Shown here one piece after another: positions 39,001 through 45,000 of a stretch of DNA of 45,637 nt. Position numbers: made by a program. Source of the stretch: a virus (Duplodnaviria; Heunggongvirae; Uroviricota; Caudoviricetes); IMG/VR virus record IMGVR_UViG_2529292910_000009, positions 1-45,637 of that record. One strand, 5' to 3'. Positions within the stretch are counted from its first letter, which is position 1; the number at the start of each line of letters is the position of its first letter.

Positions 39001-42000
39001 GCGTCCGCTTGCAGAGATTAAAAACTTCGTTGAAAAAATGCCTGATGGAGTTCGCCTTACGGAAGTTACTAAAAAAGTTAAGACATTTGCCGAACTGTCA
39101 GGAAAGGAGAGAAACCAGCTCATAGATTTTATCGATAAACGGGAAAGCATCATTGTATTTAAGGTCAGAAAAGAAGGTTCTGGTAACGGAGTAACCTTTT
39201 TCCGCCACAAAAAATATGGATATCCCAAACGGGAAGGAAACGTCACAATCACTAAGGACCTTCAATCAAAATTATGTACCAGATGCGGGCAGACAAAATC
39301 AGTCAATGATTTTTATTCAGATGCCAGCAAGCGTGACGGGAGAGCCATTTATTGCAAGAAGTGCGAATCTGCAATGAAACGCTCACGCAGAGAATGCAAC
39401 AAATTAATTCTGCAACAACAGGAACCTGAAATGAATAACCTCAAAGCAGTTTCACCTTCACCAGAAATACTCAGAAAACAGGCTGAAGAATTGCTGAAAG
39501 CCGCCGAAATTGCGGAGAAAAAACGCCAGGAAGATGATGCATTCAACAAAAAACTTGCGCCCTTAAAACTTGAAATCCTTCAGGCCGCCGGAAAAATGCA
39601 GCTTAAACTGGACGAATTCATCGACTGTATGGATGAAATGAATAAAGCAGTTCAGAAGCTTAAAGAGCTGACCGCCTGATATTAATAAATTGCAACTACC
39701 GGAGTTAACTATGAACGAAACAGAACTGAAGCACATTATCGCCCTGCTTCTGGAAGATGCCAGACAGGTTTATCGACTTAGCCCAAATTCCGCAACGCTG
39801 ACACGCATCCAGATGGCAGAAAAAGCACTGAAACAGGATAATGAAAACAGCGCATCCGAAGTTGATGCTAATGGTGAAAATGAAGTAATAGAAATAAACA
39901 GCAATATCAGCGATAGTTGCGTCGCTTACAGCCACCAAATAATTCGTGTAAGTGCAAGAATAATGGAAGTGATGGCAAGTGAGCTTGAAAAGAACAACAT
40001 CAAGCCCACTGATTGTTGTTTAAGAACCGTAATGAACGTTATTTATTACTCGATGTTCCGAAGTCGCTAACAGCGTCGAGTTTTTCATCAAAAAATGATT
40101 CAAATGCATCGTAAAATACGGCAATAGCACCGCCCTTATCTACCGCGGCAGGAACTGCCTTTTGAGGTATATCTTTCTCCCTGAATTGTGTGTTGTAGGT
40201 ATCGACAGCCAGCCTCATCAGAAACATCACTTTTTCTTCTTGTGTCATAAATTCACTCTCCTTACGGGGTTTGTAGTTGAGGAGTTCTCCACGGGTGAGG
40301 TGGAGATCGTGCGCCGGACACGGGTGAGTTCCGGCACTCTCAGTTTACTGAACAGACATTACCCTGAAAGCCAGGGTACAACACGAAAGTGCACGGCGAA
40401 GACTCTTTCCCATTGAAGGCTTGTCGTTAGATTTCTTCGACCGTGCGCTTCCGGTTGTGAATAACAACATTGCTGTGTGTAGCCCTTGGCGGACATCGGT
40501 TTGCCGATTGCTGATGTCCGCCCTTTTTAAAGTGAATTTTGTGATGCGGTGAATGCGGCTATGCGCACGCGGAACAGTTAAACCGACAGGATGTCACGGA
40601 AAGTCATCGTCCCCTGACCCGGCGTTAGTTGTTAACTGGTTAACGTCACCTGGAGGCACCAGGCACCGCATCAACAAAGTTCATTTGTGAAAATGGAGAT
40701 AATTATGATTGCTCATCACTTCGGAACTGATGAAATACCACGTCAGTGCGTGACGCCTGGCGATTATGTTCTTCATGAAGGTCGGACATATATCGCTTCA
40801 GCAAACAATATTGAAAAGAGAAAACTCTATATTCGTAACTTCACAACAAAAACATGCATTACCGACTGCATGATTAAAGTTTTCATCGGGCGCGATGGCT
40901 TACCCGTAAAAGCAGCGTCGTTGTGACGAGTAATAAAATACACCTTCCATATCTGTAACAGACAAGCCGAAATAAAACCGCATTAATTATCAATCACGGA
41001 AAAATCAAAATGAAAGAACTTGCGCAAAATGAAATATTTTCCGAAACCAGTCCTGATGCAATAAATGAACTCAAAGAAATTGCAGAACGCATCAGTAAAA
41101 TATGCAAAGAATACAAAATCGACTTTGTATTTTCTTTTTCAGTGCTTACAGAAGTTGGAAATAACGAATATAAGGACAGTCGTTTTGTTTCATGTGGGTT
41201 AAATGGCAAAACACCAAGCCCATATATTCATGCTGCACGTGAAGTTGTCAGAAGCAACATTGGAGTACAACAAATCCATACACTGGCGCAGGATCTTGAG
41301 TTTGCAAGAGAAAATTCTGAGTGCGACTGCCCTGAATGCCAGCACGAAAAGGGAAAAACAACTCACAAAACAGCAAACCAGGCAACCTTCCACTGAAATA
41401 AAAATCCGGCAGCGCAGGCTACCGGATTTCTCCCTGCGTCACCGTATTCGGAGAAATCAGACAAAGGGCCGCTAATTCTAATCCAGCCAGAGGTTTAAAT
41501 ACAATGAGCGCTGATAAACAGACTTTTGCACTACACTGCGAAGCAAAAAACGATAAAGTCAGAAAACGCCTTGGCATCAAAGGCGGTTTTTTCTGGACCG
41601 AGGCCAGAAAACTTTCTGTCGCAGTTTCCCGCTGCATTGCAGCCATGGACGATGCAGGCTACGACGAGGATGATTTCAAAAAACCCGTTCGCGTAAATTT
41701 CCCCGTCGTGAATGACCTTCCACCGGAAGGCGTGTTTGATACTGAATTCTGCAACCGCTATGAAAAAGGCGGTAACGATGGCATCACCATGATGGCTATC
41801 CCCTTCGATGACAACATCAACGGTGAAGATGCCACAACTGCTGGCGATGACAACGATAACCTGGACGGAACTATTCCGGATGATGTGGAGAAAAGCGAAT
41901 CCCCGGACAGCGACGATGACTGTTCTGAGTGTGAAATTCCCGTCGCCACTCTGAGCCTTACTCATCGCTTCCTTCACCTCTTCTTCTTCAGCAAGGATGA

Positions 42001-45000
42001 AGATGGAAAATACCGGCATCACGCCACACCAGAACAACGCAATAACGTGATCCGTATGGAGATGGACACAGAGGACAGTTACCTTCAGAGCCTGCTTACT
42101 GCTGTGCGCGCCGCACATCATGAACTGGATAAACTGACGAACTATCACCTTAGTCGCCTGGCTGAATCTGTAGGGAAAGCATTCCCCCACTCTGCAAATC
42201 ATCGCATCAGCCCGGCTGAATTCGACAAGTTCATTTCCACCTGGATGAAAACTGACTACCTTGATCAGGGCCTGCTGACAAAAGAATGGCAGAACGGAAA
42301 TTATGTTTCAGGCATTACCCGTACGCCTTCCGGTGCTAACGCTGGCGGCGGAAATCTTACCGATCGTGGTGAAGGATTCAAACATGATAAGACATCACTC
42401 GCACGAGATGTAGCCACCGGCGTTCTGGCCCGTTCAATGGATGTGGATATTTATAACCTGCACCCAGCACACGCAAAACGCGTTGAAGAAATCGTGTCAG
42501 AGAATAAGCCGCCCTTTTCTGTTTTTCGCGACAAATTTATCGCCATGCCCGGTGGGCTGGATTATTCCCGCGCCATTGTGGTGGCTTCCGTGAAAGAAGC
42601 ACCAATCGGCATTGAGGCCATCCCGGCACGCGTGACTGAATATCTCAACAAAGTGTTGACCGAAACCGATCACGCTAACCCGGATCCGGAAATCGTGGAA
42701 ATTGCCTGCGGTCGCTCATCAGCCCCGATGCCGCAGCGCGGAACAGCAGAAGGGAAACATGGCGATGAAGAAAAGCAACAAGCATCGGACACAATGGCTA
42801 ATGAACAGGCAGCGCCTGAATCAGTGGAAGAAATTCCAGTTAAACATAATGAGGACACGCAATCACTGGAAAATGTCTCATCTGTAGAAACGAAATACCA
42901 GGAACTGAGGGAGGAACTCAATAAAGCCAGGGAAAACATCCCCCCAAAAAATCCAGTCGATGCCGACAAATTACTGGCTGCCTCGCGTGGAGAATTCGTT
43001 GAAGGCATCAGTAACCCTGCTGATCCGAAGTGGGTGAAGGGGATCCAGACTCGCGACACTGAGGACCTGAATCAGTCCAAAGTGGAACAAATTGAGCCAG
43101 AAGCGGAACAAAACAGCCCGGATACGCAACAAAACGGACCGGAAGAGCAACAGCCAGGGCCAGTAATGCAACAGGAAGTGGAAAAGGTTTGCACCGCATG
43201 CAGTCAGAGCGCTGGCGGGCATTGCCCTGACTGTGGTCCAGTAATGGGCGATAGCACTTACACAGAAACTTTTGGAGAAAATGACGCCGCTGATGGAGAT
43301 GGACAAGCACAAATGAAGAATGAATACATTCAGGAAAATGCTGTTGATACAACTCAGGAACACGATTCGGTTGTCCACATAGCTCCACATAGTGATGCTT
43401 CTGACAATAATGATGATTCAGAGCAAGCAGATTTCGACTGGAAAAGGCAGCTCGTGCTTGCGGCCGTCTATGGTTTGTGCGCAAACCCTGCATGTATAGC
43501 CACAGCGCCAGCAATCCCTGATATCGCCATCATGATTGCCAACAGGCTTGAACATTTCGGAGGTGATAAATCATGAATGCCTGGCTTATCCCCGATCGCA
43601 TTGAAGAGCTGTCATGGGCACGACACTACCGGAAAATTGCCCGTGAAGAAACTGAAGCAGAGTTGGCGGACGACCTGGAAAAAGGACTGCCCCAGCGCCT
43701 GTTTGAATCGCTCTGCATAGATAGCCTACAACGCTGTGGTGCCAGCAAACAGGCCATTACCCGAGCATTTGATGACGATGTCGATTTTCAGGAACGCATG
43801 GCAGAACACATCCGCTACATGGCTGAAACCATCGCCCGTCACCAAATTAATATTGATTCAGAGGTATAAAACGGATGAGTACAGCACTCGCAACGCTGGC
43901 AGGGAAGCTGGCTGAACGTGTCGGCATGGATTCTGTCGACCCACAGGAACTAATCACCACTCTTCGCCAGACGGCATTTAAAGGTGATGCCAGCGATGCG
44001 CAATTTATCGCATTGTTGATCGTCGCCAACCAGTACGGCCTTAATCCCTGGACGAAAGAAATTTACGCCTTCCCTGACAAGCAGAACGGCATCGTTCCGG
44101 TGGTTGGCGTTGATGGCTGGTCCCGCATTATCAATGAAAACCAGCAGTTTGATGGCATGGACTTTGAGCAGGACAATGAGTCCTGTACATGCCGGATTTA
44201 CCGCAAAGATCGCAATCACCCGATCTGCGTTACCGAGTGGATGGATGAATGTCGCCGCGCACCATTCAAAACCCGCGAAGGCAGAGAAATCACCGGACCG
44301 TGGCAGTCGCATCCCAAACGGATGTTACGGCACAAAGCCATGATTCAGTGTGCTCGCCTGGCCTTCGGATTTGCTGGCATCTATGACAAGGATGAAGCCG
44401 AGCGTATTGTCGAAAATACTGCATATACTACAGAACGTCAGCCGGAACGCGACATCACCCCGGTTAACGAAGAAACCATGTCGGAAATTAACGCCCTTCT
44501 TACTTCCATGGAAAAAACGTGGGATGACGACCTGTTGCCGCTCTGTTCCCAGATTTTTCGCCGCAACATTTACACATCTTCAGAACTAACACAGGCTGAA
44601 GCTGTGAAGGTTCTTGGATTCCTGAAACAGAAAGTCACAGAGCAGAAGGTAGCAGCATGACACCGGACATTATCCTGCAACGTACAGGGATCGACGTGAG
44701 AGCTGTCGAACAGGGGGATGATGCGTGGCACAAATTACGGCTCGGCGTCATCACCGCTTCAGAAGTTCACAACGTGATAGCAAAACCCCGCTCAGGAAAG
44801 AAATGGCCTGACATGAAAATGTCCTACTTCCACACCCTGCTGGCTGAGGTTTGCACCGGTGTGGCTCCGGAAGTTAACGCTAAAGCGCTGGCCTGGGGAA
44901 AACAGTACGAGAACGACGCCAGAGCCCTCTTTGAGTTCACTTCCGGCGTGAATGTTACTGAATCCCCGATCATCTATCGCGACGAAAGTATGCGCACCGC

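What the first reader, a model, noticed from the sequence alone, without database searches (positions are those of the whole stretch)
41504..43576. 690-aa acidic early protein in the kil/cIII position, overlapping a GamS-length gam
The ORF occupies the position where lambda has kil and cIII and runs into gam by an ATGA overlap, so that only the short (GamS-like, 98-aa) Gam is encoded. The protein is Asp/Glu-rich with two Cys clusters (CSECE, CTACSQSAGGHCPDCG) and no family I recognise. Early pL position and acidity fit a host-takeover or anti-defence factor, possibly a DNA mimic.
Basis: inference. Interest (0 to 1): 0.5.

Follow-up and report, generated by a model that had tools for sequence, protein, structure and literature searches.

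The report
Nuclease-less RecE-like protein beside Gam
The 690-residue early protein is a common, already catalogued relative of the front part of the prophage recombination enzyme RecE that has no DNA-cutting domain; what that front part does is still unknown.

Summary
The ORF (41504-43576, +, 690 aa) is real. It overlaps a 98-aa Gam by ATGA and is acidic (pI 4.6). It does belong to a known family. It is homologous to the non-catalytic N-terminal ~590 residues of Rac prophage RecE (exonuclease VIII): Pfam PF06630, NCBIfam NF007259 positions 1-594 of 877, and 54% identity to K-12 RecE residues 43-546.

The PD-(D/E)XK nuclease domain is missing. In its place, at the known domain boundary, sits a conserved ~45-aa helical tail (consensus QQLTIAALQGLCANP...DDIPxMA).

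Near-identical genes are annotated "exodeoxyribonuclease VIII / RecE family" in many E. coli and Shigella prophages. That name is misleading. A 2025 paper notes nuclease-less "RecE-2" proteins with unknown roles.

The same N-terminal module occurs with at least four C-termini: a 5'-3' nuclease, a DnaQ-like 3'-5' nuclease, RecT sequence, or the tail. Its predicted 410-aa fold has no structural relative. dN/dS is 0.2-0.3.

Most of the acidity lies in predicted disordered linkers, which argues against a compact DNA mimic.

Best guess, at low confidence: a non-catalytic DNA-end or recombination accessory working with Gam-Bet-Exo. A host-directed role is not excluded. The entity is already known, the function is open, and interest is moderate to low.

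The parts
41504..43576 (+). 690-aa ORF: free-standing, nuclease-less homologue of the RecE (exonuclease VIII) N-terminal region ('RecE-2' type)
   Evidence: PF06630 at 2e-12; NF007259 positions 1-594 of 877 scoring 736 bits against a cutoff of 1269; phrog_607 positions 1-617 of 883; 54% identity to K-12 RecE residues 43-546.
41504..41815 (+). aa 1-104: first part of the confidently predicted 'head' (small alpha/beta subdomain)
41816..41935 (+). aa 105-144: acidic, low-confidence loop (40% D+E) ending in CSECE (aa 140-144, 41921-41935)
41936..42733 (+). aa 145-410: main helical part of the head, the most widely conserved segment of the family. Includes the loop motif RTPSGANAGGGNLTDR (aa 272-288, 42317-42367) and PGGLDYSRA
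   Evidence: pLDDT 89-98; conserved T274 G277 A280 G282 T286 D287 R288 P349 G350 R356; about 90% identity to K-12 RecE over this stretch; dN/dS 0.13-0.19.
42734..42874 (+). aa 411-457: acidic low-confidence linker
42875..43039 (+). aa 458-512: two helices plus the conserved segment LLAASRGEFVEGISNPADPKW, predicted with fairly high confidence
   Evidence: pLDDT about 85-90; L491 A492 P505 D507 K509 W510 conserved; dN/dS 0.11-0.13.
43040..43423 (+). aa 513-640: long acidic low-confidence linker containing a CxxC-x7-CxxC zinc-knuckle-like motif (aa 563-577, 43190-43234), shared with K-12 RecE but absent from distant relatives
43424..43573 (+). aa 641-690: conserved C-terminal helical tail that takes the place of the RecE nuclease domain; A653 A654 G657 C659 N661 P662 are invariant
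   Evidence: Three helices (646-659, 662-667, 671-684) at pLDDT 60-73.
43573..43869 (+). gam, GamS-length (98 aa); its start overlaps the ORF's stop as ATGA (the arrangement of translationally coupled genes)
43875..44660 (+). bet (94% identical to lambda Bet)
44657..45337 (+). exo (97% identical to lambda Exo): the only recombination exonuclease identified in the Rec module (38963-45337)
40687..40926 (+). kil, Rac KilR type (FtsZ inhibitor family), upstream in the same operon
41010..41396 (+). 128-aa ORF of unknown function (phrog_2016) between kil and the RecE-like ORF; not RacC
   Evidence: Conserved at this position in relatives.

Best explanation
Identity (high confidence, about 0.95). The ORF encodes a free-standing version of the non-catalytic N-terminal region of RecE/exonuclease VIII.
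- It has a ~410-residue folded 'head', with helices 458-512 as a further confidently predicted segment.
- It has acidic flexible linkers that carry a zinc-knuckle-like motif.
- In place of the PD-(D/E)XK nuclease domain it has a conserved ~45-residue helical tail.
- It is transcribed early from the leftward operon, and its stop overlaps the gam start (ATGA).

Mechanism (inferred, about 0.35-0.4). The head is a non-catalytic targeting or scaffold module for DNA ends or recombination intermediates. In RecE it is attached to a 5'-3' exonuclease. In other prophages it is attached to a DnaQ-like 3'-5' exonuclease.

Here it would act in trans as an accessory of the Gam-Bet-Exo module, with lambda-type Exo supplying the nuclease. 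It would favour recombination or survival of linear phage DNA ends. The full-length RecE N-terminus is reported to do this for linear-linear recombination.

The tail probably supplies oligomerisation or partner docking, a role the nuclease domain provides in RecE, which is a tetramer. No exonuclease activity of its own is expected.
For: Shown:
- Homology to RecE residues 43-546, with the core about 90% identical.
- No nuclease domain.
- A sister allele is colinear with K-12 RecE up to DCSDETGE (RecE 578-585) and then switches to the tail. This is the reported boundary of the minimal nuclease fragment E588 (PMC11257833 abstract, listed).
- The tail is conserved, with six invariant residues across 23 sequences (22 cluster representatives) that are only 21-66% identical overall.
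- The same head is joined to PD-(D/E)XK (22 clusters), DnaQ-like (14), RecT sequence (2), the tail (22) or other C-termini. This is a Rosetta-stone link to DNA-end processing.
- Purifying selection: dN/dS 0.20-0.30 overall and 0.11-0.19 in folded parts.
- In all close relatives with enough flank the gene is followed by Gam-Bet-Exo, with a stop/start overlap.

From the literature:
- Nuclease-less 'RecE-2' proteins occur in lambdoid early-left operons (PMC12315714).
Against: - Tail-type homologues in Buttiauxella, Citrobacter, Lelliottia and Cedecea prophages are followed directly by small genes, xis and int. No Gam, Bet, Exo or RecT is present. The protein therefore does not need a phage recombinase.
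- The DnaQ-fused form also lacks a neighbouring annealase.
- No experiment addresses a free-standing N-terminal module.
- My recollection that the N-terminus works best in cis in RecE could not be checked, because Fu et al. 2012 is not held in the library.
Confidence: 0.4

Rival explanations
1. An autonomous host-directed early factor (host takeover or anti-defence). The head binds a conserved host protein, and the C-terminal module is an interchangeable effector or adaptor. The function would be unrelated to Red recombination.
For: - Tail-type relatives occur in prophages with no recombinase at all.
- The gene lies in the accessory early-left operon, beside Kil and Gam, both of which target host proteins.
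- It has long acidic disordered linkers.
- The head fold is an orphan.
- A variable C-terminus on a constant head resembles adaptor-effector designs.
Against: - There are no hits to PADLOC defence models and no structural match to any known anti-defence protein.
- The only domains found fused to the head are DNA-end nucleases or RecT sequence.
- The only experimental phenotype of the homologous RecE region reported in the papers read here is in recombination.
Confidence: 0.25
2. The head is itself an enzyme of unknown activity. The strictly conserved, well-ordered loops (R-T-x-S-G-x-x-A-G-G-x-x-x-T-D-R, PGxLDYSRA, LTExDH) would form an active site.
For: - These loop motifs are the best conserved positions across 82 sequences.
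- They are predicted at pLDDT above 94 despite lacking regular secondary structure.
Against: - No similarity to any enzyme fold or Pfam catalytic domain was found.
- Conserved loops fit a binding surface equally well.
Confidence: 0.1
3. A compact acidic DNA mimic of the Ocr/ArdA type that blocks restriction enzymes or RecBCD.
For: The protein is acidic overall: pI 4.63, net charge -58.
Against: - -48 of the net charge lies in low-confidence, probably disordered segments. The folded part carries only -9.
- No structural match to known mimics was found.
- A dedicated DNA mimic, Gam, is encoded immediately downstream.
Confidence: 0.05
4. A membrane-tethered protein, with the hydrophobic tail acting as a C-terminal anchor.
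For: The best 19-residue Kyte-Doolittle window in the tail scores 1.72, above the usual 1.6 threshold.
Against: - Only 3 of 22 family tails exceed 1.6, and the median is 1.06.
- An invariant Asn-Pro breaks the segment.
- AlphaFold2 predicts three short helices, with no single long helix.
Confidence: 0.05
5. A decaying remnant of recE left behind after lambda red genes replaced the nuclease domain and recT; no function.
For: The locus is a Rac/lambda mosaic. kil and the central part of the ORF are Rac-like, and gam-bet-exo are lambda-like.
Against: - The ORF is intact at ~690 aa in most of the closest 120 clusters, and related sequences occur in 5148 of 5426 complete E. coli genomes, 81 of which hold at least 80% of the 7.1-kb region.
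- dN/dS is 0.2-0.3.
- The tail is conserved across genera down to 21% overall identity.
- The swap falls at a domain boundary.
Confidence: 0.03
6. A genuine exodeoxyribonuclease VIII, as the database annotations say.
For: The product name in phage and RefSeq records.
Against: - There is no PD-(D/E)XK or DUF3799 match, whereas full-length relatives have one.
- The NCBIfam equivalog score of 736 is below the 1269 cutoff, and the match stops at model position 594 of 877.
- The alignment to RecE ends at residue 546.
- No solved fold of any kind, nuclease included, is matched significantly.
Confidence: 0.02

Closest known systems
RecE / exonuclease VIII of the E. coli K-12 Rac prophage (866 aa), N-terminal region
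   Same: - Homologous over RecE residues 43-546 (54% identity; the core is about 90% identical), including the zinc-knuckle-like CxxC...CxxC and the acidic linkers.
- Same operon position downstream of kilR.
- The literature describes this region as being of unknown function.
   Different: - It lacks the whole C-terminal PD-(D/E)XK nuclease domain and carries a 45-aa tail that RecE does not have.
- The N-terminal ~50 residues differ.
- It is followed by lambda-type gam-bet-exo, where Rac has recT.
'RecE-2' proteins of lambdoid phages (Genome Res 2025, PMC12315714)
   Same: [quoted passage not shown] The window protein fits that description.
   Different: The paper gives no details and its supplementary tables are not held. 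I could not confirm that this exact lineage is among their examples.
Head + DnaQ-like (PF16473 Rv2179c-like) 3'-5' exonuclease fusions in Rac-like prophages (e.g. P0123, 805 aa)
   Same: Same head: 63% identity over the matched stretches, the best covering residues 199-621. Same kilR-ydaE-X arrangement.
   Different: It carries a DEDD-type exonuclease where the window protein has the tail, and is followed directly by xis and int.
P22 Abc1 and Arf (accessory proteins of a lambdoid Rec module)
   Same: A functional analogy only. These are non-nuclease, non-annealase proteins encoded within a phage Rec module. They aid recombination by unknown mechanisms (PMC12315714).
   Different: No similarity was tested or claimed, and the proteins are much smaller.

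Membership tests
RecE / exodeoxyribonuclease VIII (NCBIfam NF007259 equivalog) | Homologous N-terminal region (Pfam PF06630 Exonuc_VIII) | tested here: met
   PF06630 at 2e-12 and 47.8 bits against a cutoff of 25; BLASTP 1e-179 to K-12 RecE residues 43-546.
RecE / exodeoxyribonuclease VIII (NCBIfam NF007259 equivalog) | C-terminal PD-(D/E)XK 5'-3' exonuclease domain (RecE from about residue 588 to 866) | tested here: not met
   No PF12684 or other nuclease hit. The model match stops at position 594 of 877. phmmer with the RecE C-terminus finds it in full-length relatives but in no tail-type cluster representative.
RecE / exodeoxyribonuclease VIII (NCBIfam NF007259 equivalog) | Whole-protein score above the curated equivalog cutoff | tested here: not met
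   735.9 bits against a cutoff of 1269.
RecE / exodeoxyribonuclease VIII (NCBIfam NF007259 equivalog) | Cognate recT immediately downstream | tested here: not met
   The downstream genes are gam, bet and exo. In Rac, recT follows recE.
RecE / exodeoxyribonuclease VIII (NCBIfam NF007259 equivalog) | Mg-dependent 5'-3' dsDNA exonuclease activity | not testable with these tools
   Needs biochemistry.
Nuclease-less 'RecE-2' class (PMC12315714) | Related to Rac/Gifsy-1 RecE but lacking a nuclease fold | tested here: met
   for the protein; for the class definition.
Nuclease-less 'RecE-2' class (PMC12315714) | Encoded in the early-left (pL) operon of a lambdoid phage | tested here: met
   The order is cI, N..., kil, ORF, gam, bet, exo, followed by int in near-identical phages.
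DNA-mimic anti-restriction / anti-nuclease proteins (Ocr, ArdA, Gam type) | Compact folded domain whose surface acidic charge imitates DNA | tested here: not met
   The folded 425 residues have net charge -9 and pI 5.9; -48 lies in low-confidence segments.
DNA-mimic anti-restriction / anti-nuclease proteins (Ocr, ArdA, Gam type) | Structural similarity to a known mimic | tested here: not met
   No significant match to any solved or viral predicted structure, a known mimic included.
   tblastn finds no relevant hit. A KilR-type Kil is separately present at 40687-40926.
Lambda Gam (for the overlapping downstream gene) | Full-length match to the Gam family | tested here: met
   PF06064 over 1-98 of 98 at 2.3e-59; 79% identity to lambda Gam residues 41-138.
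Known anti-phage defence systems (PADLOC-DB) | Match to any defence-system protein model | tested here: not met
   0 families for the ORF and three upstream ORFs.

The most novel reading that the evidence does not exclude
The RecE 'head' would be a portable targeting platform with an orphan fold. Prophages of Enterobacteriaceae combine it with interchangeable C-terminal effectors: a 5'-3' nuclease, a 3'-5' nuclease, RecT, at least two further unclassified C-termini, or the conserved tail.

In the tail form it would not merely help the phage's own recombinase. It would capture a conserved host factor or the DNA end itself. Examples are protection of linear phage DNA together with Gam, or hijacking of an SSB-interactome enzyme. 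The second idea is hinted at by sister alleles that end in an SSB-C-terminus-like ...DDE[HY][MI]P[DN]F.

That would define a new class of phage end-handling or anti-nuclease adaptor, and would finally give RecE's N-terminal 600 residues a function.
Probability: 0.2. Interest if true: 0.6.

Novelty: already known. Interest (0 to 1): 0.32.

Why it matters
RecE/RecT is a workhorse of recombineering, yet reviews still call two thirds of RecE 'of unknown function'. Full-length RecE is needed for efficient linear-linear recombination, which is the basis of direct cloning.

Nature has split that unexplained region off as a separate, selected protein sitting next to lambda Red. That gives a clean handle on the question:
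- Test it in trans with Red-alpha/beta/gamma.
- Look for its partners.
- Correct the widespread 'exodeoxyribonuclease VIII' annotation of a protein that has no nuclease domain.

For this window itself the finding is ordinary. It is a common gene of E. coli and Shigella 933W-like prophages.

Tried and rejected
- **Tail as a Red-docking peptide.** I considered the tail as a docking peptide for lambda Exo, Bet or Gam. This cannot be a general explanation, because distant tail-type genes have no gam, bet, exo or recT nearby.
- **Tail as a stand-alone or shared domain.** A profile search with the tail alignment found only fragments of the same family. An HMM of the tail finds nothing in K-12 RecE, in lambda early proteins, or elsewhere in the window. 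PHROGs places it only in phrog_607 and phrog_26058.
- **Upstream 128-aa ORF as RacC.** There is no similarity.
- **Transmembrane anchor.** The score is borderline in this allele only.
- **'Gam-only' contexts.** In these loci RecE-2 and Gam are followed by int. They look like IS-disrupted prophages, so I did not use them as evidence.
- **Literature.** One search was wasted because 'RecE' matched 'receptor' at word starts. Fu et al. 2012 is not held. The supplements of PMC12315714 are not held.

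
Full report
**1. Observation**

The ORF 41504-43576 (+) is 690 codons long and begins at the first ATG after a stop. A GAGG lies 10 nt upstream of that ATG. Its TGA stop overlaps the ATG of a 98-codon gam as ATGA. The gam frame is closed just upstream, so only a GamS-length product can be made.

That Gam matches Pfam Gam end to end. It is 79% identical to residues 41-138 of the 138-codon lambda gam. DNA similarity to lambda starts at the GamS ATG and continues through bet (94% protein identity) and exo (97%).

The protein is acidic: 18.1% D+E, net charge -58, pI 4.63.

One correction is needed. A Kil gene is present 0.6 kb upstream at 40687-40926. It is the Rac KilR type, 90% identical to K-12 KilR. 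There is no lambda cIII, lambda kil, ea10 or ral homologue. The ORF therefore sits where Rac has recE (kilR-ydaE-racC-recE-recT). It does not stand in for kil.

**2. Identity**

The protein is a clear homologue of the N-terminal, non-catalytic part of RecE/exonuclease VIII.
- Pfam PF06630 Exonuc_VIII at 2e-12.
- PHROG phrog_607, positions 1-617 of 883, at 2e-256.
- NCBIfam NF007259 'exodeoxyribonuclease VIII', positions 1-594 of 877. The score of 736 bits is far below the equivalog cutoff of 1269.
- BLASTP aligns residues 51-592 with K-12 RecE residues 43-546 at 54% identity. The segment from about residue 240 to 410 is about 90% identical. The CxxC-x7-CxxC motif is shared.

No nuclease domain is detected, whereas a 1049-aa relative carries PF06630 plus PF12684.

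The same 690-aa gene is 92-96% identical in phages PhiR5_2, phiSTEC1589-Stx1c, Shigella 75/02 Stx and POCJ13. The 7.1-kb region around it is 97-98% identical in the best-matching E. coli chromosomes, including O104:H4 strains. It is annotated everywhere as 'exodeoxyribonuclease VIII' or 'RecE family exodeoxyribonuclease'. For this architecture that name is misleading.

**3. What replaces the nuclease**

A sister allele (P0118) is colinear with K-12 RecE up to DCSDETGE (RecE 578-585) and then switches to a different sequence. That is the known start of the minimal active nuclease fragment, 'E588' (PMC11257833 abstract). Reviews place the nuclease in residues 564-866 or in the last 260 residues.

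The replacement is a ~45-residue tail. Among 23 aligned sequences (22 cluster representatives) that are only 21-66% identical overall, the tail consensus is LTYxQQLTIAALQGLCANPAxxxxxDDIPxMAxxLA. Residues A653, A654, G657, C659, N661 and P662 are invariant.

The tail motif is absent from K-12 RecE, from the lambda early proteins, and from the rest of the window. A profile search found it only in fragments of this same family.

**4. Family architecture**

An exhaustive representative search found 206 clusters at E <= 1e-3. Among the 86 representatives of at least 400 aa, the same head is joined to different C-termini:

| C-terminal module | Clusters |
|---|---|
| RecE-type PD-(D/E)XK nuclease | 22 |
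| DnaQ-like 3'-5' exonuclease (PF16473) | 14 |
| RecT sequence (possibly deletion fusions) | 2 |
| Conserved tail | 22 |
| None of these | 26 |

The last group includes at least two further recurrent C-terminal sequences. The head is therefore a module that is repeatedly combined with DNA-end enzymes.

**5. Structure**

I ran AlphaFold2 with an 82-sequence alignment (mean pLDDT 75.7). It predicts:
- residues 1-104 and 145-410 at pLDDT 89-98;
- helices and a conserved extended segment at 458-512, at about 85-90;
- three short tail helices at 60-73;
- low confidence for 105-144, 411-457 and 513-640.

Of the net charge of -58, -48 lies in those 215 low-confidence residues. The confidently folded 425 residues carry -9 (pI 5.9).

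Fold searches found no relative:
- Foldseek against PDB and BFVD gave nothing at E <= 1e-3.
- A profile search of PDB sequences found nothing.

The best-conserved positions form well-ordered loops: R-T-x-S-G-x-x-A-G-G-x-x-x-T-D-R at 272-288, PGxLDYSRA, and LTExDH.

**6. Selection and mosaicism**

Against alleles about 92% identical, dN/dS is 0.20-0.30 overall. It is 0.13-0.19 for residues 145-410 and 0.11-0.13 for residues 458-512. dS swings from 0 to about 0.9 between segments.

The window combines Rac-like kil and central recE DNA (76-83% identity) with lambda-like gam-bet-exo (92%). The gene is a maintained, recombining gene and not a relic.

**7. Context**

The window is a 933W-like (Sepvirinae-type) prophage. 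It has cI, a Ser/Thr-kinase-like gene, N, short-tail and tail-fibre genes, and a 1706-aa giant ORF (taxonomy of the close relative 75/02 Stx).

In close and medium-distance relatives, the gene is followed by Gam-Bet-Exo-Int wherever enough flank is available.

In Buttiauxella, Citrobacter, Lelliottia and Cedecea prophages, and in several IMG/VR contigs, tail-type genes (25-46% identity) are followed by small genes (Rrf2-like, DUF1187), xis and int. No recombinase is present. The DnaQ-fused form likewise precedes xis and int directly. The head-plus-tail protein therefore does not depend on a phage annealase or exonuclease.

**8. Literature**

A 2025 survey of lambdoid Rec modules notes 'RecE-2' proteins. 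It describes them as related to RecE but lacking a nuclease domain by AlphaFold 3, with 'roles ... not known'. The same survey reports DnaQ-like nucleases in Rec modules (PMC12315714). I found no other mention.

**9. Mechanism**

Shown: identity, loss of the nuclease at a domain boundary, a conserved tail, modular fusions to end-processing enzymes, purifying selection, and a stop/start overlap with gam (the arrangement of translationally coupled genes).

Inferred: the head is a non-catalytic module that targets DNA ends or recombination intermediates. Here it acts in trans with Gam-Bet-Exo. The tail gives it oligomerisation or docking in place of the tetrameric nuclease domain. I put this at about 0.35-0.4.

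The main rival, at about 0.25, is an autonomous host-directed function such as takeover or anti-defence. The recombinase-free contexts and the orphan fold support it. PADLOC gives no hit.

Other readings rank as follows:
- An unknown enzymatic activity of the head is possible (about 0.1).
- A compact DNA mimic is disfavoured by the charge distribution and by the presence of Gam next door.
- A membrane anchor is unlikely. Only 3 of 22 tails pass the hydropathy threshold, and an invariant Asn-Pro interrupts the segment.
- A pseudogene and a true exonuclease are both strongly disfavoured.

**10. Verdict**

The claim of 'no family' is wrong.

The entity is already catalogued, under a misleading product name, and has been mentioned in the literature as a nuclease-less RecE relative of unknown role.

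- the exact domain-boundary swap;
- the conserved tail motif;
- the census of alternative C-termini on an orphan-fold head.

Interest is moderate to low for this window. The gene is nonetheless a practical handle on the old question of what RecE's N-terminal 600 residues do.

Noticed in passing
L015 7033-7055 (relatives P0118, P0122, P0130, P0244); window 43556-43576 for comparison: A sister lineage differs by a 1-nt indel just before the gam ATG. It ends ...NFGVTDDE[YH][MI]P[DN]F (also TSDERLPDF) where the window has ...FGGDKS, and it overlaps gam codons 1-8 in another frame. This acidic-hydrophobic-Pro-x-Phe C-terminus resembles the E. coli SSB C-terminal tip (DDDIPF; from my own knowledge). 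The pattern is kept in several divergent alleles.
   Followed up: partly
window 40926-41010; compare L012 2253-2426 and L015 4250-4426: A YdaE-like zinc-binding small gene lies between kil and the RecE-like gene in Rac, in many close relatives, and (just upstream of the gene) in distant genera. It is absent from this window, as it is in PhiR5_2 and 75/02 Stx.
   Followed up: partly
window 40474-40523 and 40525-40719 (+): There are sub-threshold Rfam matches to DicF (29.5 bits against a gathering score of 48) and to STnc100 (31 against 47). They lie immediately upstream of the kil start and overlap it. DicF is known as an ftsZ-targeting prophage sRNA, and Kil also targets FtsZ.
   Followed up: no
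window 41567-41611 (+): Two terminator-like hairpins with T-runs lie inside the first 36 codons of the ORF: CGCCTTGGCATCAAAGGCG followed by GTTTTTTCTG, then TTTTCTGGACCGAGGCCAGAAAA. The region 39900-44000 has 15 terminator-like sites against 4.7 +/- 2.5 expected. They could be N-antiterminated sites or a by-product of the conserved KRLGIKGGFFW coding sequence.
   Followed up: no
window 41402-41429 (+): There is an 8-bp inverted repeat, AAATCCGG...CCGGATTT, with a 12-nt loop just after the stop of the 128-aa ORF. No T-run follows it.
   Followed up: no
window 38963-39679 (+): A 238-aa ORF directly after N belongs to phrog_2539 (unknown function). Its residues from about 97 to 190 give weak matches to Lar-like restriction-alleviation and to endonuclease VII/HNH zinc-finger families.
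   Followed up: no
window 37086-37922 (+): A 278-aa ORF between cI and N matches a phage serine-threonine kinase family (phrog_2361, 1.6e-112).
   Followed up: no
window 2893-8013 (-): A 1706-aa ORF (phrog_616, unknown function) has a C-terminal part that weakly matches a DarB-like antirestriction family (2.4e-25).
   Followed up: no
representatives P0127, P0143, P0178, P0189, P0198, P0220, P0258; and P0163, P0170, P0179, P0210, P0239: Two further recurrent C-terminal sequence types are attached to the same RecE-like head. One ends ...YLxGRLRRLxxIKxxR... and the other ends ...LRxEKxxRKxVAAxxGMLxM...GE. Neither matches the nuclease, DnaQ, RecT or tail queries.
   Followed up: no
representatives P0145, P0153, P0155, P0159, P0172-P0174, P0217, P0227: In these relatives the query segments of about 20-265 and about 145-405 match consecutive stretches. 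This suggests an internal duplication of the helical 145-265 part of the head.
   Followed up: no
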